Positions 4,159 to 40,697 of a stretch of DNA of 64,000 nt are shown piece after piece. Position 1 is the stretch's first letter. Each line of letters opens with the position of its first letter. The notes under the pieces were generated by a model. That model was not told the origin of the DNA, made no database searches, and saw only the letters and a list, made by a program, of their open reading frames with translations. The stretch is from an uncultured Myxococcales bacterium (lineage in GTDB: Bacteria > Myxococcota_A > Polyangia > Palsa-1104 > JAEUJZ01): assembly GCA_964460115.1 (NCBI GenBank), contig CAYWPR010000001.1:120829-184828 (forward strand). The letters run 5' to 3'. The position numbers were made by a program, and so were the translations under genes.

Positions 4159-5301
4159 ATGAAGTCAGCGTCTTTTCGCCGTTTCATAGGGCGGCTTTTA
4201 CCCATTGCCGTCGCGATTGCCGCACTTTTATATGCCATCCATCGCACCGATCTGGACAAAACCTGGCAGCATTTGCGGCAGGCCTCGCTAGGCTGGCTGC
4301 TTTTGGTCTCGGCCGGCATGACGCTTTTGAACTGCGCCGCCGACACCTTCGCCATGTACCATGTCTTTGCCGGATTCGGACTGCGGCTGCGCTTTTTTGA
4401 CCTGTACACCATCCGCGCCGCGACCTACACGCTGGCGGTCATCCACTATCACGCCGGGCAGCTTGGCATCATCGGCTTTCTTTACCGAGTTGCGCGCGTG
4501 CCCTTGTCGCGGGCCAGCGCCTATATTCTTTTTATTATCGGCATCTGGGTGGCCCTGCTTGTGATCTTTGCCACCGGAGGCGCGCTGCTTGGCGGCCCCA
4601 AAGGACGAGCGGTGTTGCCTTGGCTGACGCCGTTTGCGCTGGGGCTTGTCGTATATGCCTTGGTTTTGCGCTTTCCGCCGCGCTTTTTGCGCGTGCCGCC
4701 CGTTGCGATTGCCGGCAGTGCGAAAGATTCGCTTTTGACCAATCTATGGCAGCGCGTGATTCGGCTGATCAGCAACTTGTGGGAGCCGCTGCACACCGCC
4801 GGCCTGTCCGGGCATTTGCGGGCGCTCCTCGTTCGGCTGCCGCACCTGGCAGTCCTTTTGATTTGGCATTTTATCGCCCTGCGCTGCTTTCATATCAAGG
4901 TGCCCTTTTACCTGGCCATGCTGTATCTGCCGGTAGTATTTGCCGTCGGAGCGCTGCCGATCAGCATTTTTGGCCTGGGCACCACCCAGATGGTGGCGCC
5001 TTACTATTTCGCGGATTTTGCCGGCTCGGGCCCTAGCGGCAACGCGGCAGCTTTTGCCTACAGCTTGTCGATGACCGCGATTTCCACGGTCAGTAACCTT
5101 GTCATGGGATTTTTGTTTCTACGCCGCGGCGCGCGGCTTGGTCTAAGCACCACGCCCGAACAAACGGCCAAGATGGAAGCTCAGCTTACAGCCGAAGCGC
5201 AGGCGGCTTCTGCTCCGCCGACGATTTCCGCCGAGGAAAACAGCGCATCCTTAGGTTCGGTGCTATACCCGAATTCGGAGGATCGGCTTATCCTTCACTG
5301 A
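4159..5301 (+). CDS. flippase-like / lysylphosphatidylglycerol-synthase-TM-region (UPF0104) family membrane protein
   Basis: Eight or so TM helices. The N-terminal pattern RLLPIAVAIAALLYAIHRTDLDKTWQHLRQASLGWLLLVSAGMTLLNCAADTFAMYHVF is typical of PF03706-like proteins. Confidence 0.5.
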   Translation: MKSASFRRFIGRLLPIAVAIAALLYAIHRTDLDKTWQHLRQASLGWLLLVSAGMTLLNCAADTFAMYHVFAGFGLRLRFFDLYTIRAATYTLAVIHYHAGQLGIIGFLYRVARVPLSRASAYILFIIGIWVALLVIFATGGALLGGPKGRAVLPWLTPFALGLVVYALVLRFPPRFLRVPPVAIAGSAKDSLLTNLWQRVIRLISNLWEPLHTAGLSGHLRALLVRLPHLAVLLIWHFIALRCFHIKVPFYLAMLYLPVVFAVGALPISIFGLGTTQMVAPYYFADFAGSGPSGNAAAFAYSLSMTAISTVSNLVMGFLFLRRGARLGLSTTPEQTAKMEAQLTAEAQAASAPPTISAEENSASLGSVLYPNSEDRLILH

Positions 5302-5308
5302 AACGCGT

Positions 5309-6271
5309 ATGCTTCCTGCGCTAACACTTCTAGCGTTGTGCTCGCTTCCCAAGCTGCTTTTGTACCCTGACGGCCCCGTGGAAAACGGCGGCGGAACGGT
5401 CAATCGCGCGCCTCCTCCGGTGGTTTTGGTCAAAAGCGCCGGAGTGCGCGCGGTGCAAGAAGTCGCCGACGCCTTCAGCGATGGCTGCCGAGTTCACGTG
5501 CAGCAGATTTATATAGGCGAAGGACCGACCGAGATTGCGCGCGCGCGTGAGATCGTCCAGTCCGCGCGCGTGCTTGTCGCGGTGGGCCAGCCGGCCATCG
5601 AACTGATGATTGGCGTGCGCGCGCACATCGTCTATGCGCTGGCCCCCGATCCGCCCCCAGGCCTGATTGGCACCAACAACAGCGCCCCGCCTTTACAGGT
5701 CTTTAAGGCGCTTTTGTCTCTGCGTCCGCACACGCGACGAATTGCCGCCATTTCTAGCGAACGGGGCGCGCATCGGCTGGTCCAAGCGCGGGCCGCGGCG
5801 CGCAGCTTGGGCCTGGAGCTTGTCGATCTGCCGGCCGACGACAGCCGTGCCGCAATTCGCGCGCTGCGCGCACTTTTTGTACCGATGCCCGATGAGCCCG
5901 CTGGAAAGACCGCTGGCTCTCCAGTCGACGCGCTGTGGCTGGGCGCCGATCCGCAGCTTGTCGATACGCAAGTGTTGCAATTTGTTCTGCAGATGCAGAT
6001 TCAGTGGCAAGTGCCGGTGGTGGCAGCCACCCGCCAACAAGTCAGCTTCGGAGCGCTTCTAACCGTCGATTGGCCGCTAGAAGCCGTCGGACGCAACCTG
6101 GCTTGGCAAGTCAATCAGCTACTTGATGATCCCGAACACATTGCAGATTTGGCCCGCGATCATCCCATGGGTACGCCCGAGACCGTCATCAACGCCCAGG
6201 CGGCCCGGCGTTTGGGCATTTCGGTCGAGGCGCTGCGCCCGCTTCCCCCCTGGAAGGTGATCGAGCGATGA
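5309..6271 (+). CDS. periplasmic ABC_sub_bind-like (PF04392-type) solute-binding protein associated with a sensor kinase
   Basis: Signal peptide present. Periplasmic-binding-protein-like fold with no ABC permease or ATPase genes nearby. A 4-nt ATGA overlap with the downstream histidine kinase suggests translational coupling. Confidence 0.5.
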   Translation: MLPALTLLALCSLPKLLLYPDGPVENGGGTVNRAPPPVVLVKSAGVRAVQEVADAFSDGCRVHVQQIYIGEGPTEIARAREIVQSARVLVAVGQPAIELMIGVRAHIVYALAPDPPPGLIGTNNSAPPLQVFKALLSLRPHTRRIAAISSERGAHRLVQARAAARSLGLELVDLPADDSRAAIRALRALFVPMPDEPAGKTAGSPVDALWLGADPQLVDTQVLQFVLQMQIQWQVPVVAATRQQVSFGALLTVDWPLEAVGRNLAWQVNQLLDDPEHIADLARDHPMGTPETVINAQAARRLGISVEALRPLPPWKVIER

Positions 6272-9114
6272 ACCCGGCCGACCCGGCAGCAGAATCTGCA
6301 GGTGCCGCGTCTACATCTTCGCCAATCTCTCAAGAAGAACCGACCACGCCCGCGGCCTCAGCGCTTTCTGACAGCACACCGATCGATCCCGTAGCGCCCT
6401 GCGAAATCCCGGTCCCCGAAGAAAGCACCTTAAAACTCGCAACCATTTCGCGAGCAGAGGCAAATGCCGCCGCGTCCCTGAGCACGGCGGCCGCCGAACT
6501 GGCCACAGCCGCCACGACCCAGCCAAGGACCACGCCCGGCCTAGAAGGCGACAACTTATCGATACGCGAGACCCTGCCGCTGGCCCATCCGCAAAGCGTG
6601 GTCGTCAAACCGGCCGACACTTCTGATCTGAGCAAAGCCGAGGAAACGACCGAGATCCTCGGGCTTGAGCAAAGCGGCGAAATCAGCGGTTGGGGCAATC
6701 TGCTGATGCGGCAGCGCTCCAGTTTCTTTCGGCAGGTATTTTTGTGGCTTTTGGCCATCTCGCTGCTGATGTCGGTGGGCTCGGGCGCTATCTATTACAG
6801 TCGGCAGCTTGCCTTCATTGAAGAAGACGGGCAGCAGCGGGCCGAGCTTTTGCTGGGTTATCTGGCGACGCAATCGCAGCTTGGTGCCTTTGCCGGTGAC
6901 AAAGTACTGCTGGAACATCCGGTGCGCCGGGTGATCGATCAAAAAGATGTCGTCTTTGTGGCCGTCTACGATCTTTCCGGAAAGGAACTTATCAAGTCGA
7001 GCGGCCGGATCGGTCAAGCGCCGCCGGATCCGCCGGCTGGCTTGCTTGGTGAAATGCTTCGCGCCACGCGACGGGATCCGCAGATCAAACAGAAGAACAA
7101 AAACGATATCTTTTTTCAAAACGTCGCCGCCAATCACAACCACGCGCTTATCAACGAAGAATGGAACTGTCTGGATTTGTATGCGCCCATCGTCATCAGC
7201 GAACGCGGCGGACCGGGCGTGGCGGCATTCGTTTCGCCAAGCGATCGACTGACCCATGAACGCGTCGTAGGTGTGGCGCGCGTCGGCCTGTCGCTGGAAA
7301 CCGCCAATGAGCGGCTGCGCGACGTATTGCGCTGGGGGGTGGGCCTGGGGCTGCTTTTGCTGGCCATGGGGGCAACCGCCGCCTACTTTATCGCCGGCCG
7401 CATCAGCGTCCCGATTTTGGAACTTGTGCGCGGCGCCGACGAAATTCGCAACGGCAATTTGCATCCACGCATCAATGTCTCGCGCACCGACGAACTGGGC
7501 ATGCTTGCCGAATCCTTTCTGCGCATGGCCGAGCGCCTGCGTGAAACCATGTCGGCGCTGTCGCGTCTGAACCGCGATCTGGAAAGCGAAGTCAAACGGC
7601 GCACGCGGCAAATTCGCCTGGCCTACGCGTTTACCTCTGTTTTGAATTCGCCCATCGATCGCAGCGACGAAGCCATGGATGCTGCTGATTTGACGGTGAT
7701 GCTCGATCAGGCCTTGGCGGCGCTCGTCGAGGCCACCGGCACCAAAGGCGGCGGCGTCTTTTTGGCCGATGAAAGTATCAGCGACGGCGAGCTTTTGGTC
7801 CGCGCCGCTTATGGCGTCTCGACGCATACCTTGGGTCCAACGCCGCCCCTCAAAGACTTTTTAGAGCAGTGCGTCAATAACGCCGATGGCATGGTGCCGA
7901 CGCTGCATGAAGCCGTACAGGTCGTCGGCCGGCGCCTTTTGGTGCCTTTGGTCTTTCGCAACCATCCTCTAGGCCTTTTGGTGCTGGTGCTTTGCGAGGA
8001 TGAGCCGCCCGAGCAAACGCTTCTAGAGTTCGTACGCCAGGCCGCAGCGCAGATGGCCATCGCGGTCAGCAATGCTCGCGCTTACGCCCGTCTGTCGCAA
8101 CTGGCCACGGAGCTGCGTCTGCGTACCGAAACCTTGGCGGCCCAGCGCGATCAGGTCAAAGCCCAGCGCGATCAGCTTGAAACGCAGCGCAATCAGCTTG
8201 AAGAGCAGCGCAATCAATTGGCGGCGCAGGGCATGCAATTGCGCATTCAGCGCAATCAGCTTCGCGAAGTGAATCGTCTGAAGTCGGAATTTTTGGCCAA
8301 TGTCTCACACGAGCTGCGCACGCCGCTAAACGCCATCATGGGCTACTCCGAGCTTATCGATGACGAGATCTACGGTCCCATTTCGGTCGATGCGCACGAG
8401 GCGGTCACCGGCGTCCTGGCTTCCTCGGCCAATCTGCTGCGCCTTATCAATCAGATTCTGGATCTGTCGCGAATCGAGGCCGGCAAGATGGAATTCTTCT
8501 TTGAAGAGATCGACATCTCGACGGTCTGTAGCGCGGTCATTCGCGAAGCCGAGGCGATGGGTCGCGACCGGCCCTATCGCGTAGAACTTACAAGCCCGCC
8601 GGGGCTGCGCATCGTCACCGATGCCGTGAAACTGCAGCAAATTCTGACCAACCTCATCGCCAACGCCATCAAGTTCACGGCCCAGGGATCGGTCTATGTC
8701 GAGGCCAAAGAACTTCTAGGCGGCGATGTGCAGATTTCGGTACACGACACCGGAATCGGTATTAAAAGCGAGAACTTGCAGCTTATTTTCGAGGAATTTC
8801 GCCAAGTGGACGGCAGCTCGACGCGGCGATTTGGCGGGACGGGCCTGGGATTGGCCATCGCCCGCCGCCTGGCCGAAATGCTCGGGGCGACGATCTCTGT
8901 CGAAAGCACATTTGGCGAGGGCTCGGTCTTTAGTGTGCATTTGCCGCGCATTCCACCGCCGCAGCCGGCTGGCCGCTCGCGACCGCGCGACGCCGACAGC
9001 AACCCATATGTCAGTATGTTCTCGGATCCTGAGATACCGCGCCTTTTGCAAACCAACCTACTTGCCGGACCCGGGCCGAAATTGCCGCCCGATCGGTCGC
9101 AAGACGAAACATAG
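6268..9114 (+). CDS. sensor histidine kinase: N-terminal disordered cytoplasmic region, 2 TM helices with periplasmic sensor, HAMP, GAF, coiled-coil S-helix, HisKA, HATPase_c
   Basis: HAMP motif PILELVRGADEIRNGNLHPRINVSRTDELGMLAESF. H-box FLANVSHELRTPLNAI. G-boxes DTGIGI and GGTGLGLAI. Heptad repeats QRDQ/QRNQ immediately precede the H-box. Confidence 0.9.
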   Translation: MNPADPAAESAGAASTSSPISQEEPTTPAASALSDSTPIDPVAPCEIPVPEESTLKLATISRAEANAAASLSTAAAELATAATTQPRTTPGLEGDNLSIRETLPLAHPQSVVVKPADTSDLSKAEETTEILGLEQSGEISGWGNLLMRQRSSFFRQVFLWLLAISLLMSVGSGAIYYSRQLAFIEEDGQQRAELLLGYLATQSQLGAFAGDKVLLEHPVRRVIDQKDVVFVAVYDLSGKELIKSSGRIGQAPPDPPAGLLGEMLRATRRDPQIKQKNKNDIFFQNVAANHNHALINEEWNCLDLYAPIVISERGGPGVAAFVSPSDRLTHERVVGVARVGLSLETANERLRDVLRWGVGLGLLLLAMGATAAYFIAGRISVPILELVRGADEIRNGNLHPRINVSRTDELGMLAESFLRMAERLRETMSALSRLNRDLESEVKRRTRQIRLAYAFTSVLNSPIDRSDEAMDAADLTVMLDQALAALVEATGTKGGGVFLADESISDGELLVRAAYGVSTHTLGPTPPLKDFLEQCVNNADGMVPTLHEAVQVVGRRLLVPLVFRNHPLGLLVLVLCEDEPPEQTLLEFVRQAAAQMAIAVSNARAYARLSQLATELRLRTETLAAQRDQVKAQRDQLETQRNQLEEQRNQLAAQGMQLRIQRNQLREVNRLKSEFLANVSHELRTPLNAIMGYSELIDDEIYGPISVDAHEAVTGVLASSANLLRLINQILDLSRIEAGKMEFFFEEIDISTVCSAVIREAEAMGRDRPYRVELTSPPGLRIVTDAVKLQQILTNLIANAIKFTAQGSVYVEAKELLGGDVQISVHDTGIGIKSENLQLIFEEFRQVDGSSTRRFGGTGLGLAIARRLAEMLGATISVESTFGEGSVFSVHLPRIPPPQPAGRSRPRDADSNPYVSMFSDPEIPRLLQTNLLAGPGPKLPPDRSQDET
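8140..8265 (+). repeat. six in-frame 21-bp tandem repeats (gcScagcgcRatcagSttgaa-like) encoding heptads AQRDQVK/AQRDQLE/TQRNQLE/EQRNQLA/AQGMQLR/IQRNQLR
   Basis: Direct reading of the sequence. The repeats lie inside the HK CDS, in the coiled-coil linker between GAF and DHp. Confidence 0.85.
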
Positions 9115-9133
9115 GATTTGATCGAGTGCTCAT

Positions 9134-9526
9134 GTGACGACCAGCCTTACTCCGAATGACCGTACCGTGCTTCTCGTCGATGACGACGTTCACAACCAGC
9201 GAATTTTTGATCGGGTGCTGCGCCACTCGGGATTTCATGTGCGCATGGCCGCCACCGGCGATGAGGCCCTGCGTGAGGCCCGCGCCCATCTGCCCGACCT
9301 CATCCTGATGGACCTATCGATTCCGGTGATTGACGGATGGGAATGCTCGCGCCAGCTTAAGGCCGATCCCAAGACCCAGCACATCATCATTTTGGCGCTA
9401 ACCGCCCATGCCATGCGCGGCGATCAGGAACGCGCCATTGCCGCAGGCTGCGATGGCTACCTGGCCAAACCAATCTCACCCAAAAGACTGGTCGAAGAGG
9501 TCAAACAGCGTCTACAAATTAGCTAA
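9134..9526 (+). CDS. stand-alone response regulator receiver (CheY-like) protein
   Basis: Receiver signature VLLVDDDV...LILMDLSIP...ALTAHAMRGDQERAIAAGCDGYLAKP, with conserved Asp and Lys. No output domain. Confidence 0.9.
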   Translation: MTTSLTPNDRTVLLVDDDVHNQRIFDRVLRHSGFHVRMAATGDEALREARAHLPDLILMDLSIPVIDGWECSRQLKADPKTQHIIILALTAHAMRGDQERAIAAGCDGYLAKPISPKRLVEEVKQRLQIS

Positions 9527-17757: not shown

Positions 17758-18084
17758 CTATTCGTCGTCGTCTTCATCGTCGTCAAGATCGTCGTCTTCG
17801 TCAAGCAGGTCATCATCATCATCATCATCAAAGTCGTCGAGCAGATCCTTATCGCCGCTCAGTCGACCGGCGCTTGGCGGCGGCGAGACGCGAATCATGG
17901 GGCGCCGTTCGCGCACCCGAAGTTCGGGTTCTTCGGCAGGAACTGAGGGCGTCGACAGATCGGCCACATCCGGCAAAGCGCCAAGATGCGCTTCCAGATC
18001 GGCTCGCGTAAGCTCGCCGCGTCGAACGCGGCGCTCGATCACGCGTACATCCCAAAAGCGAGGGTCGGTGCGCTGAATAATCAT
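17758..18084 (-). CDS. small hypothetical protein with poly-Asp/Glu C-terminal tail; ORF 17758..18435 trimmed to the ATG at 18084
   Basis: MIIQRTDPRFWDVRVIERRVRRGELTRADLEAHL...DDFDDDDDDDLLDEDDDLDDDEDDDE. The upstream part of the long ORF overlaps the C-terminus of the neighbouring gene. Confidence 0.5.
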   Translation of the reverse strand: MIIQRTDPRFWDVRVIERRVRRGELTRADLEAHLGALPDVADLSTPSVPAEEPELRVRERRPMIRVSPPPSAGRLSGDKDLLDDFDDDDDDDLLDEDDDLDDDEDDDE

Positions 18085-33606: not shown

Positions 33607-34138
33607 ACTTCGCGCCTTTGCCGGTAAATTTCCGACGATCGATCCAAGCGTCTATATTGCCGATACCGCCACGGTGGTCGGCGACGTGCACGTCGGAGCC
33701 CGCTCGAGCATTTGGTTTGGCGCTGTGCTGCGCGGCGATGTCTTTCACATCCGCGTTGGAGAAGAGACATCGATACAAGACAACACGGTGCTGCACGTCA
33801 CCCACGATCGCTTTGCCACGGTGGTCGGCAACCGAGTGACGGTCGGCCACTCGGTGACGCTGCATGGCTGCACCATCGGCGATTTGTGCATCATCGGCAT
33901 GGGCGCCACGGTGCTCGACCAAGTTGAAGTTGGCGAGCGCTGCATCGTCGGCGCCGGCGCCCTTTTGACCCCCGGAACCAAAGTTCCCCCCGGGCACCTT
34001 ATCGTCGGCACCCCGGCGCGCGTCAAGCGCCCCCTGACCGACGCCGAACTTGAATGGCTGTCCGCTTCCGCCGCGCATTATGTGGAGCTTGGCCGCATTT
34101 ACGCCCGAGAGGAAGCCGAAGCCCAAACCGGCAATTGA
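33563..34138 (+). CDS. gamma-carbonic-anhydrase-like hexapeptide-repeat protein (YrdA/PaaY/CaiE family)
   Basis: Left-handed beta-helix repeats with the characteristic PTIDPSVYIADTATVVGDVHVGARSSIWFGAVLRGD. Confidence 0.85.
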   Translation: MTSLSSSSSVRPLRKLRAFAGKFPTIDPSVYIADTATVVGDVHVGARSSIWFGAVLRGDVFHIRVGEETSIQDNTVLHVTHDRFATVVGNRVTVGHSVTLHGCTIGDLCIIGMGATVLDQVEVGERCIVGAGALLTPGTKVPPGHLIVGTPARVKRPLTDAELEWLSASAAHYVELGRIYAREEAEAQTGN

Positions 34139-39725: not shown

Positions 39726-40697
39726 TTACCGCGGGAAGCCGCCGACGTGGCATCCAGCCAAGCTAATCTGCAGAGGCAAAAGCTCGAGCTCGGCATACAC
39801 CGGACTGGAATTTGCGACAAGTCGCTGCTCCAGCGCCGCTGCTGCTTTGAGGTCGGGAAGAAACACAACCGCCAAGTCGCCGCCGCCAGCCCCCGACGGT
39901 TTGGCCACCCCTCCGACTTGTTTGGCAAGGTCGGCAATGGCCATATGCTCGGCGGTCAGCAATTCACAATTCAAAGCTTCCTGCAAAACGCGAAAAGCCG
40001 ACTGCGCTTCGGCGACCGCTTCCAGAATCTCGCCCGGCGCGGCCATGCGGCAGGCTTGCAGAAAGCGCTTTGCGGCTTGGCCCATGCGCGCCCGGCCCGA
40101 ATCAGCCGCTGCGCCGACGCTGCGATAGCGTTTGATAAGCGCCGCGGTCGAGGCACTGCGTCCGGTGGCAATAAAGCGCAGTTGCAACGGCGCAGGCAGT
40201 TGCAGCTCGTCTGGGCAATGGTCAAGGGCCGCGCCGCGGTTTTCCAAAGCGCGCAGCCCGCCAAAGGTCGATGCCAGCACATCGGCGCCGCTGCCTGGCT
40301 CGCCTTGCGCTATGTCGTGCGCGCGCCGCGCCGCCCGATGCAGCGCGATCAAGTGAGCCGCTGGCAAAAGATCGCGTCCAGCCGCGACAAAAAGCGCGCC
40401 GAGGGCGGCAACGGTCGCCGCGGCGCTGGAACCAAGCCCCAGTTTGCGTCCATTTGGCGCAAAAGCCGTGGTGTCCACAACCGGAACGGCGGACGGAGCA
40501 CTTGGGCCCAAACTCAAAAGCTCGATGCGCGCTTGCTCTAGAGCGGCGCGAATAAAATCAGACGCGGGGCTGGCGTTTTCATGAAGCTGCGCCACGGCGT
40601 AGCGATTCACCGCCGCGACGACTGCGGAGCTTCCGTCTAAAACCGCGTACTCGCCAATCAGCATGGCTTTGCCTGGGGCTAAAATCGCCAGGCTCAC
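39726..40697 (-). CDS. phosphomevalonate kinase (GHMP kinase)
   Basis: N-terminal APGKAMLIGEYAVLDG (PMK-type) and GHMP motif KLGLGSSAA. Confidence 0.8.
   Translation of the reverse strand: MSLAILAPGKAMLIGEYAVLDGSSAVVAAVNRYAVAQLHENASPASDFIRAALEQARIELLSLGPSAPSAVPVVDTTAFAPNGRKLGLGSSAAATVAALGALFVAAGRDLLPAAHLIALHRAARRAHDIAQGEPGSGADVLASTFGGLRALENRGAALDHCPDELQLPAPLQLRFIATGRSASTAALIKRYRSVGAAADSGRARMGQAAKRFLQACRMAAPGEILEAVAEAQSAFRVLQEALNCELLTAEHMAIADLAKQVGGVAKPSGAGGGDLAVVFLPDLKAAAALEQRLVANSSPVYAELELLPLQISLAGCHVGGFPR

What the first reader, a model, noticed from the sequence alone, without database searches (positions are those of the whole stretch)
8140..8265. Six perfect-register 21-bp tandem repeats inside a histidine kinase, encoding the coiled-coil immediately upstream of the phospho-acceptor His
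The DNA is a near-perfect tandem array (gcccagcgcgatcagGtcaaa / gcccagcgcgatcagCttgaa / acgcagcgcaatcagcttgaa / gagcagcgcaatcaattggcg / ...). It encodes heptads (x-Q-R-D/N-Q-L-x) of the S-helix/DHp stalk. Heptad number sets the helical phase between the GAF sensor and the H-box, and hence the kinase/phosphatase bias. DNA-level repeats this regular are prone to slipped-strand expansion or contraction in 21-bp (one-heptad) units. That would be a built-in, in-frame mechanism for heritable retuning of signalling output, a phase-variation-like switch in a signalling protein.
Basis: seen in the sequence. Interest (0 to 1): 0.5.

Follow-up and report, generated by a model that had tools for sequence, protein, structure and literature searches.

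The report
Heptad-repeat stalk in a histidine kinase
A sensor kinase gene from a myxobacterial (Polyangia-like) genome carries six in-frame 21-base repeats, left by an old tandem duplication that lengthened the helical stalk between its sensor and catalytic parts; relatives show the repeat number is stably inherited, so it is not a genetic switch.

Summary
Window 8140-8265 is six in-frame 21-bp units, the strongest tandem repeat in the 64 kb (lag-21 identity 0.72 against 0.28 +/- 0.05 elsewhere). Only units 1-3 are near-perfect (18/21); the other adjacent pairs match at 12-14/21.

The array encodes xQR(D/N)QLx heptads, aa 625-666 of a 948-aa TM-HAMP-GAF-HisKA-HATPase kinase. It lies in one predicted 116-residue helix running from the GAF domain into the DHp domain (His681).

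- **Origin.** Outgroup orthologues in the same SBP-kinase-regulator operon have one such heptad. One Polyangia clade expanded it.
- **Stability.** Of 84 scored protein sequences, 81 have six copies, two have seven, and one has three (a nested 63-bp deletion). Eleven metagenome loci all have six. No variation appears inside nine clusters of >=90% identity.
- **No concerted evolution.** Unit i in one genome matches unit i in other genomes best.
- **Phase.** GAF-to-His distances in homologues are 30/44/58/72/79/86, always 7n+2. Whole heptads therefore preserve helical phase rather than set it.

Verdict: this is a fossil tandem duplication that lengthened a signalling coiled coil. Heptad-unit indels are real but rare, and nothing supports a phase-variation-like switch. 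It is an ordinary member of a known kind.

The parts
8140..8265 (+). Six in-frame 21-bp units encoding heptads AQRDQVK AQRDQLE TQRNQLE EQRNQLA AQGMQLR IQRNQLR (aa 625-666).
   Evidence: Lag-21 identity is 0.724 against 0.276 +/- 0.047 in the rest of the window. TRF gives period 21 and 42.
6268..9114 (+). Sensor histidine kinase gene, 948 aa. It has a low-complexity N-terminus, TM1 (aa 153-177), an extracytoplasmic region, TM2 (356-377), HAMP, GAF, the heptad stalk, HisKA and HATPase_c.
   Evidence: ORF, Pfam, motif positions. Orthologues at 58-80% identity.
7387..7545 (+). HAMP domain (aa 374-426).
   Evidence: Pfam PF00672, E = 3.4e-15.
7579..7614 (+). S-helix-like signature LESEVKRRTRQI (aa 438-449), between HAMP and GAF. 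This is the closest match to the published S-helix motif, and it lies outside the array.
   Evidence: Position. Motif L-E-x-x-V-x-E-(R/K)-T-x-(E/D/Q)-L as quoted in PMC8199190. Matched by eye only.
7681..8073 (+). GAF domain (aa 472-602).
   Evidence: PF01590 scores 23.2 bits against a cutoff of 22.4. GAF_2 scores 28.5 against 28.6. The AF2 model shows an alpha/beta fold there.
8014..8361 (+). One continuous predicted alpha-helix (aa 583-698). It comprises the GAF C-terminal helix, the S-helix-like segment LATELRLRTETLA, the six heptads and DHp helix 1.
   Evidence: AF2 model m8f3e60e8c873, helix at model residues 153-268. pLDDT is 91-94 over model residues 191-230 and 81 over 231-240.
8308..8310 (+). 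Codon of the phospho-acceptor His681 in the H-box SHELRTPL, 14 residues after the array.
   Evidence: HisKA match.
8281..8484 (+). HisKA (DHp) domain, aa 672-739.
   Evidence: PF00512, E = 7.4e-19.
8620..8949 (+). HATPase_c catalytic domain, aa 785-894.
   Evidence: PF02518, E = 8.5e-29.
5309..6271 (+). Upstream gene for a substrate-binding-protein-like product (weak ABC_sub_bind match). Its stop overlaps the kinase start as ATGA. It is conserved next to the kinase in all orthologues whose held DNA covers it.
9134..9526 (+). Downstream single-domain response regulator, the presumed partner. It is conserved downstream in the orthologues wherever the held DNA covers that position.
   Evidence: PF00072, E = 6.9e-27; synteny.

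Best explanation
The 126-bp array is the DNA trace of an old tandem duplication of a single 21-bp (one-heptad) unit. It lies inside the helical linker that joins the GAF domain to the DHp (His-bearing) domain of a transmembrane HAMP-GAF sensor kinase.

Shown here:
- The ancestral linker, kept in the outgroup orthologues, has one xQRDQLx heptad and 44 residues from the GAF 'NAR' motif to the His.
- One Polyangia clade gained five more heptads, giving 79 residues in the same 7n+2 class.
- The six units have since been inherited as positionally distinct, conserved units.
- Copy number changed only about twice more: a 6/7 difference, and a 6-to-3 change by a 63-bp deletion that keeps the heptad register.

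Inferred:
- In the kinase dimer the two long helices form a parallel coiled coil. On the spacing argument Leu (unit position 6) and the invariant Gln (unit position 2) would take the a and d core positions. That is one hydrophobic core residue per heptad, so the coil would be marginally stable.
- This coil relays conformational changes from the periplasmic/HAMP/GAF modules to His681.
- Because whole heptads were added, helical phase and therefore signal polarity were kept while the stalk grew by roughly 5 nm (my estimate from about 0.15 nm rise per helical residue).

The DNA periodicity seen today comes from three things: the repeated peptide, biased codon choice, and residual identity from the duplication, possibly with occasional short conversion between units. 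It is not an active high-frequency switch.
For: - **Domains and position:**
- **Continuous helix:** aa 583-698, with pLDDT 91-94 over most of the array.
- **Copy numbers:** 1 in L010-L016, L018, L019 and in the Nannocystaceae loci L024 and L072. 6 in nearly all closer orthologues, 7 in P0028 and P0031, 3 in P0020.
- **Orthology of the one-copy loci:** SBP, kinase and response regulator lie in the same order. The LPG_synthase_TM-SBP-HK-RR order holds in the close orthologues and in the 3-copy locus.
- **Trees with the linker masked:** one-copy lineages are basal, the multi-copy clade is nested within them, and the 3-copy protein is nested inside the six-copy clade.
- **Positional orthology:** between genomes, the same unit matches at 0.74-0.91 and different units at 0.50-0.77.
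- **The window's array is not unusual:** its mean unit identity is 0.64, inside the orthologue range of 0.59-0.69.
- **No close-relative variation:** none among 56 extra members of nine >=90% clusters.
- **DNA-level ancestry:** the same-codon fraction is 0.73 against 0.44 expected. The excess is significant (P < 0.05) in 14 of 23 orthologous arrays. L009 has two adjacent 21/21-identical units.
- **Phase class:** 50 of 57 distinct GAF-to-His linkers are 7n+2, at lengths 30, 44, 58, 72, 79 and 86.
- **Literature on heptad-periodic kinase linkers:** PMC6798134 and PMC11164954.
Against: - No sequence from the same species as the window was available; its cluster has one member. Copy-number variation in this particular population is therefore untested.
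- Assembled contigs are consensus sequences and would hide minority variants.
- The same-codon excess and the identical units in L009 and L082 mean some ongoing exchange between units cannot be excluded.
- The coiled-coil (dimer) state and the a/d assignment are inferred. Only a monomer was modelled, and there is only one hydrophobic residue per heptad.
- The trees are simple neighbour-joining trees without support values.
Confidence: 0.85

Rival explanations
1. One reading: the array is a contingency locus. Slipped-strand mispairing adds or removes 21-bp units at appreciable frequency, producing heritable and reversible changes in kinase/phosphatase bias.
For: - In-register heptad-unit changes have occurred in the family: 1 to 6, 6/7 and 6 to 3.
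- A 15-nt exact direct repeat lies at 21-bp spacing in the window.
- L009 has a perfect 21-bp doublet.
- In BvgS, adding or deleting one heptad in the pre-DHp coil abolished kinase reporter activity, so heptad number can matter (PMC4810494).
Against: - 81 of 84 scored proteins and 11 of 11 metagenome loci have six copies.
- None of the 56 extra members of nine >=90% clusters varies.
- Only three units are close to identical.
- The proposed mechanism (a phase change) is wrong for whole heptads (PMC6798134).
- From general knowledge, known phase-variable tracts are longer runs of perfect, mostly 1-9 nt units.
Confidence: 0.04
2. Protein-level convergence only. The heptads look alike because the coiled coil needs the same residues, and the DNA similarity follows from that plus codon bias, with no duplication history.
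For: - The window's unit identity (0.64) is typical of the orthologues.
- Back-translation alone already gives 0.585 mean unit identity.
- Distant phyla have independent xQxEELx-type heptad runs before the DHp domain, as in L023, L026, L032 and L047.
Against: - Outgroup orthologues have exactly one unit and the difference is exactly 35 residues.
- Same-codon sharing exceeds expectation (P about 0.001) and adjacent units are more alike than distant ones, 0.72 against 0.64.
- TRF also finds a 42-bp period.
- Perfect 21-mer duplicates occur in L009 and L082.
Confidence: 0.07
3. Ongoing concerted evolution. Short gene-conversion or unequal-exchange events keep homogenising the units within each genome, so the array is dynamic at the DNA level even though copy number is held at six by selection.
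For: - The same-codon excess is significant in 14 of 23 arrays.
- L009 shows a lag-21 exact run of 27 nt against 11.9 expected (P = 0.005).
- Identical non-adjacent units occur in L082.
Against: - The between-genome matrix is clearly diagonal-dominant. Unit-specific residues are conserved across 58-80% identical orthologues, for example unit 5 QQS[IFMY]QLR and unit 6 IQRNQLR.
- The codon excess could equally reflect a local preference for CAG and CGC shared by all the genomes.
Confidence: 0.15

Closest known systems
Heptad-periodic coiled-coil linkers between sensor modules (PAS/LOV/GAF/PHY) and the DHp domain of sensor histidine kinases (YF1 and bacteriophytochrome kinases; PMC6798134, PMC11164954)
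   Same: A continuous helix runs from the sensor domain into DHp helix 1. Natural homologues differ in linker length by multiples of seven and stay in one register class, here 7n+2.
   Different: Here the extra heptads are near-copies of one another and still detectable as a 21-bp DNA tandem repeat, which shows they arose by tandem duplication. The core would be Leu/Gln rather than two hydrophobic positions. No functional data exist for this kinase.
BvgS-family pre-DHp two-helix coiled coil (PMC4810494, PMC5829827)
   Same: Both are marginally stable coiled coils directly before the DHp domain. In BvgS the stability and length of this coil control the kinase/phosphatase balance. That gives a precedent for heptad number mattering without a phase change.
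   Different: BvgS has three heptads, and that length is fixed in 96% of its PAS-containing homologues. Its sensor modules are different (VFT, PAS) and it has no DNA-level repeat.
Signalling helix (S-helix; Anantharaman, Balaji and Aravind 2006, PMC1592074)
   Same: Both are roughly 40-residue, five-to-six-heptad helical connectors in signalling proteins with polar residues in core positions.
   Different: The array lacks the defining ERT signature in a central heptad. The S-helix-like motif of this protein lies elsewhere, at aa 438-449 between HAMP and GAF.
GacS HAMP-to-DHp coiled coil (PDB 7z8n; PMC12148439)
   Same: It is the closest solved sequence relative over the linker plus DHp (E = 1e-19, aligned from 17 residues before the array through DHp). 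It also has a long helical connector ending in ...RIKSEFLANMSHE.
   Different: The GacS connector follows a HAMP domain rather than a GAF domain, is three residues shorter in the alignment, and is not made of near-identical heptads.
In-frame coding tandem repeats (VNTR-like) in bacterial coiled-coil or stalk surface proteins, and simple-sequence contingency loci
   Same: Both involve in-frame repeat units that can in principle be gained or lost by misalignment without breaking the reading frame. This comparison rests on general knowledge, not on a tool result.
   Different: Those loci show copy-number differences between close strains and have many perfect copies. This array shows none across nine species-level clusters, and only three of its units are close to identical.

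Membership tests
Class I (HisKA-type) sensor histidine kinase | HisKA/DHp domain with an H-box His, plus a HATPase_c catalytic domain. | tested here: met
   PF00512 E = 7.4e-19 and PF02518 E = 8.5e-29. H-box SHELRTPL with His681.
Heptad-periodic coiled-coil sensor-to-DHp linker | A continuous alpha-helix from the C-terminus of the sensor domain into DHp helix 1. | tested here: met
   AF2 monomer model: a single helix over aa 583-698, with pLDDT 81-94 over the array.
Heptad-periodic coiled-coil sensor-to-DHp linker | Linker lengths among homologues differ by multiples of 7 (a single register class). | tested here: met
   50 of 57 distinct linkers have a GAF-'NAR'-to-His distance of 30, 44, 58, 72, 79 or 86, all equal to 2 mod 7.
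Heptad-periodic coiled-coil sensor-to-DHp linker | Parallel two-helix coiled-coil packing in the dimer, with a/d core positions. | tested here: inconclusive
   Only one hydrophobic residue per heptad (Leu at unit position 6) and an invariant Gln at position 2. No dimer model or coiled-coil predictor was available.
S-helix (signalling helix) | A conserved ERT signature in the central heptad of a roughly 40-residue helix. | tested here: not met
   The array units are xQR(D/N)QLx with no ERT. The closest matches to the motif are LESEVKRRTRQI at aa 438-449, and more weakly LATELRLRTETL at 612-623, both outside the array. This was a comparison by eye, not a profile search.
Phase-variable / contingency repeat locus | Repeat copy number differs among closely related strains. 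| tested here: not met
   All 56 extra members of nine >=90% identity clusters have six copies. Arrays from the same cluster differ by synonymous changes but not in length, for example L003 against L089. This could not be tested in the window's own species, whose cluster has one member.
Phase-variable / contingency repeat locus | A long tract of perfect or near-perfect short repeat units. | tested here: not met
   Pairwise unit identity is 10-18 of 21. The longest exact lag-21 run is 15 nt.
Phase-variable / contingency repeat locus | High-frequency, reversible switching within a clonal population. | not testable with these tools
   This needs read-level population data or a fluctuation assay.
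Tandem-duplication-derived coding repeat | Relatives with fewer or more units differing by whole units, plus nucleotide similarity beyond what the peptide requires. | tested here: met
   States of 1, 3, 6 and 7 units. Same-codon fraction 0.73 against 0.44 expected, P about 0.001. Adjacent 21/21-identical units in L009.

The most novel reading that the evidence does not exclude
The array behaves as a slow, in-frame length polymorphism. Rare 21-bp-step gains and losses change the length, and so the stability, of a deliberately weak Leu/Gln coiled coil. This would shift the kinase/phosphatase set-point without changing helical phase. On this reading the natural 3-, 6- and 7-heptad orthologues are adaptively retuned variants rather than neutral length changes.
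Probability: 0.1. Interest if true: 0.45.

Novelty: new member of a known kind. Interest (0 to 1): 0.17.

Why it matters
The finding is mainly a clean natural illustration of an established rule. Sensor-to-kinase linkers tolerate insertions and deletions only in whole heptads, because those keep helical phase. Here the mechanism that supplies such changes, tandem duplication and in-register deletion of 21-bp units, is still visible in the DNA.

The natural series of 1, 3, 6 and 7 heptads in otherwise orthologous kinases could serve as ready-made constructs for asking how stalk length, as distinct from phase, affects signalling. It does not reveal a new regulatory mechanism, and there is no sign of a phase-variation switch.

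Tried and rejected
1. **Strain-level copy-number variation.** I listed members of ten protein clusters and scanned metagenome contigs with a degenerate pattern for QRNQLxEVNRLKSEF. All sequences had six copies, and none was a same-species relative of the window.
2. **Concerted evolution.** The unit-by-unit identity matrix between genomes is diagonal-dominant, so homogenisation of whole units is rejected. A weaker codon-level excess remains unexplained.
3. **'The window's array is unusually regular, hence recent'.** Rejected: its unit identity lies within the orthologue range, and the codon excess is family-wide.
4. **S-helix membership of the array.** Rejected because the ERT signature is missing.
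5. **Precedent for slippage in kinase stalks.** A paper search for a sensor kinase with a slipped-strand, in-frame coiled-coil repeat found nothing relevant.
6. **Inverted repeats or other DNA structure in the region.** None found.
7. **Antisense ORFs overlapping the gene** (for example 6556-7827 on the minus strand). I treated these as by-products of the roughly 60% G+C content, because the plus-strand protein is conserved.
8. **Regex artefacts.** My GAF-end regex missed some proteins. P0031 was reported at d = 133 because its motif is NGRAY; counted by hand it is 86. Those rows were not used as evidence.
Full report
**1. The observation**

The region 8140-8265 lies inside a 948-codon ORF at 6268-9114 on the plus strand. 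It consists of six 21-nt units in the reading frame, encoding AQRDQVK AQRDQLE TQRNQLE EQRNQLA AQGMQLR IQRNQLR. Tandem Repeats Finder reports period 21 (3.7 copies at 85% matches, and 4.0 copies at 77%) plus a period-42 reading. Nothing else in the 64 kb scores as high.

The lag-21 identity of the 126 nt is 0.724. All other 126-nt windows of the 64 kb average 0.276 with sd 0.047 and a maximum of 0.467. The core CAGCGCRAYCAR occurs five times in the array, against 0.27 expected for the whole window. The repeat is therefore real and far beyond chance.

The regularity is less than described. Units 1-2 and 2-3 match at 18/21, but 3-4, 4-5 and 5-6 match at only 14, 14 and 12 of 21. Unit 5 has lost the Arg-Asp/Asn pair, and the longest exact match at a 21-nt offset is 15 nt.

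**2. What the gene is**

Pfam finds HAMP (aa 374-426), GAF (472-602, borderline scores), HisKA (672-739) and HATPase_c (785-894). Two hydrophobic segments (aa 153-177 and 356-377) flank an unassigned, presumably extracytoplasmic region. The array is aa 625-666. The phospho-acceptor His681 (nt 8308-8310) follows 14 residues later.

An AlphaFold2 model of aa 431-948, built with a 23-sequence alignment, has mean pLDDT 75. It predicts one uninterrupted helix from aa 583 to 698. That is the last GAF helix, the array (pLDDT 91-94 over most of it) and DHp helix 1. The closest solved sequence relative across linker plus DHp is the GacS cytoplasmic fragment 7z8n, which also has a long helical connector.

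The published S-helix motif (L-E-x-x-V-x-E-R/K-T-x-E/D/Q-L; PMC8199190, PMC1592074) is not in the array. The best match by eye is LESEVKRRTRQI at aa 438-449, between HAMP and GAF.

The gene's start overlaps the stop of an upstream substrate-binding-protein-like gene as ATGA. A single-domain response regulator follows it.

**3. Relatives**

A protein search returned about 30 orthologue clusters at 58-80% identity, all from Myxococcales/Polyangia metagenome-assembled genomes. Genome contigs gave DNA for 19 related loci. The order LPG_synthase_TM, SBP-like gene, kinase, regulator is conserved.

I counted heptads directly before EVNRLKSEFLANVSHE. Of the 30 cluster representatives, 27 have six, two have seven (P0028 = L009, and P0031 = L082) and one has three (P0020 = L081). 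Nine clusters contributed 56 further member sequences, each grouped at >=90% identity and so roughly strain-to-species level. All of them have six. Eleven metagenome contigs found with a degenerate DNA pattern also all have six. These sets partly overlap. The window's own cluster has only one member, so its own population could not be examined.

More distant orthologues (41-53% identity, same SBP-kinase-regulator order; L010-L016, L018, L019) have exactly one unit, as in ...ERNxALxxQRDQLQEMNRLKSEF. So do two Nannocystaceae relatives, L024 and L072.

In neighbour-joining trees built with the linker masked, the one-copy lineages are basal and the multi-copy clade is nested within them. The seven-copy pair is sister to the six-copy clade, and the three-copy protein sits inside the six-copy clade. 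The simplest history is one expansion from one heptad to six or seven, one change between six and seven, and one 63-bp deletion that kept the heptad register. The surviving first unit of P0020, TQRDQLE, looks like the front of unit 1 or 2 joined to the back of unit 4.

**4. Is the DNA repeat dynamic?**

Between genomes, unit i is most similar to unit i. Diagonal values are 0.74-0.91 and off-diagonal values are 0.50-0.77. Unit-specific residues are conserved across the clade, for example unit 5 QQS[I/F/M/Y]QLR and unit 6 IQRNQLR. The units are therefore old and positionally orthologous, and whole units are not being homogenised. The window's mean unit identity (0.64) lies within the range of its orthologues (0.59-0.69).

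The DNA is nonetheless somewhat more repetitive than the peptide requires. Back-translating the peptide with the codon usage of four local genes gives an expected same-codon fraction of 0.44 +/- 0.08, against 0.73 observed (P about 0.001). The expected longest exact run is 9 nt, against 15 observed (P = 0.04). The same excess is significant (P < 0.05) in 14 of 23 orthologous arrays. It is thus a family-wide property, reflecting shared ancestry, a local codon preference or occasional short conversion. It is not a sign of recent expansion in this genome.

One seven-copy array (L009) has two adjacent units identical at 21/21 nt. Another (L082) has two identical non-adjacent units. Duplication or exchange of whole 21-bp units does therefore happen in this family, but rarely.

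**5. Phase**

Of 57 distinct linkers, 50 are 30, 44, 58, 72, 79 or 86 residues long, all equal to 2 mod 7. Six are 48 and one is 40. Register is thus strictly kept while heptad number varies from 4 to 12.

This matches the published behaviour of sensor-kinase linkers. In YF1, 7n linkers keep the response and 7n+1 linkers invert it, and natural LOV and phytochrome kinases show heptad-periodic linker lengths (PMC6798134; PMC11164954).

Heptad number can still matter through coil stability. In BvgS, inserting or deleting one heptad in the three-heptad pre-DHp coil abolished kinase reporter activity, and coil stability decided between kinase and phosphatase states (PMC4810494). Whether that applies here is untested.

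**6. Mechanism proposed**

Shown:
- The array is the middle of a long helix joining GAF to DHp.
- It arose by tandem duplication of one heptad.
- It has been stable at six copies through most of the clade.

Inferred:
- In the dimer the helices pair as a parallel coiled coil.
- From the 3/4 spacing, Leu (unit position 6) and the invariant Gln (unit position 2) would occupy the a and d positions. With one hydrophobic residue per heptad the coil would be only marginally stable, as is typical of signalling helices.
- The duplication lengthened the stalk by 35 residues, roughly 5 nm by my estimate from helical rise, without altering polarity.
- The strong conservation of the exposed Arg, Asp/Asn and Gln residues hints at specific inter-helix polar contacts or a binding surface. 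I could not test this.

**7. Comparison and novelty**

This is a new member of a known kind, namely the heptad-periodic coiled-coil linkers of sensor histidine kinases. It is not an S-helix by motif. It fails the testable criteria of a contingency locus, which are variation among close strains and a long perfect tract.

Similar but independent Gln/Glu/Leu heptad runs precede the DHp domain in kinases of Desulfobacterota, Anaeromyxobacter and Ignavibacteria, so the general design is widespread. The only mildly unusual point is that the duplication is still legible in the DNA, and that natural states of 1, 3, 6 and 7 heptads exist in one orthologous system.

**8. Verdict**

Interest is low.

Noticed in passing
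window 4159-9526: A four-gene block is conserved in the orthologous loci: an LPG_synthase_TM-family membrane protein (4159-5301), the SBP-like protein (5309-6271), the kinase and a single-domain response regulator. The SBP stop overlaps the kinase start as ATGA at 6268-6271, which suggests translational coupling and possibly an SBP co-sensor for the kinase.
   Followed up: partly
window 6268-6723 (kinase aa 1-152): A low-complexity N-terminal tail rich in Ala, Ser, Thr, Pro and Glu precedes the first transmembrane segment and has no Pfam match. Orthologue lengths range from about 850 to 1085 aa, and most of the difference appears to lie in this tail.
   Followed up: no
window 7579-7614: An S-helix-like signature, LESEVKRRTRQI, lies between HAMP and GAF. 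This protein therefore has two long helical connectors, and the repeat array is the second one.
   Followed up: partly
L009 (7-copy array, units 4 and 5) and L082 (units 2 and 4): These arrays contain perfectly identical 21-nt units (CAGCAGCGCGACCAGCTTGAA twice in L009). That is evidence of recent duplication or conversion of a whole heptad unit in the seven-copy lineage. In L009 the exact lag-21 run is 27 nt against 11.9 expected.
   Followed up: partly
L081 (P0020): This orthologue has only three heptads and full synteny, and is nested in the six-copy clade. It is a natural three-heptad (63-bp) deletion that keeps the heptad register.
   Followed up: yes
L019: In this relative the 90 residues before the H-box run from a HAMP-like segment (…DELGQLAEAFNRMAARLREGM…) straight into the one-heptad linker, and the kinase tblastn match covers only query aa 642-925. 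It may lack the GAF domain.
   Followed up: no
L023, L026, L032, L047 (Anaeromyxobacter, Desulfobacterota, Geobacteraceae); L020, L021, L025, L035 (Ignavibacteria): Independent runs of five to six xQxEELx-type heptads lie directly before ...RLKSEFLSNMSHELRTPL in distant kinases. Gln/Glu/Leu heptad stalks before the DHp domain appear to be a widespread design.
   Followed up: partly
window 17761-17799, 33823-33859, 39885-39926: Three other weak tandem repeats were found: period 12 with 3.2 copies, period 18 with 2.1 copies and period 19 with 2.1 copies. All score 50-52.
   Followed up: no
arrays of 23 orthologous loci: Codon choice within the heptad arrays is more uniform than each gene's overall codon usage predicts; CAG and CGC are almost fixed. 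The excess is significant in 14 of 23 arrays. The cause is unresolved and could be ancestry, local codon preference or micro-conversion.
   Followed up: partly
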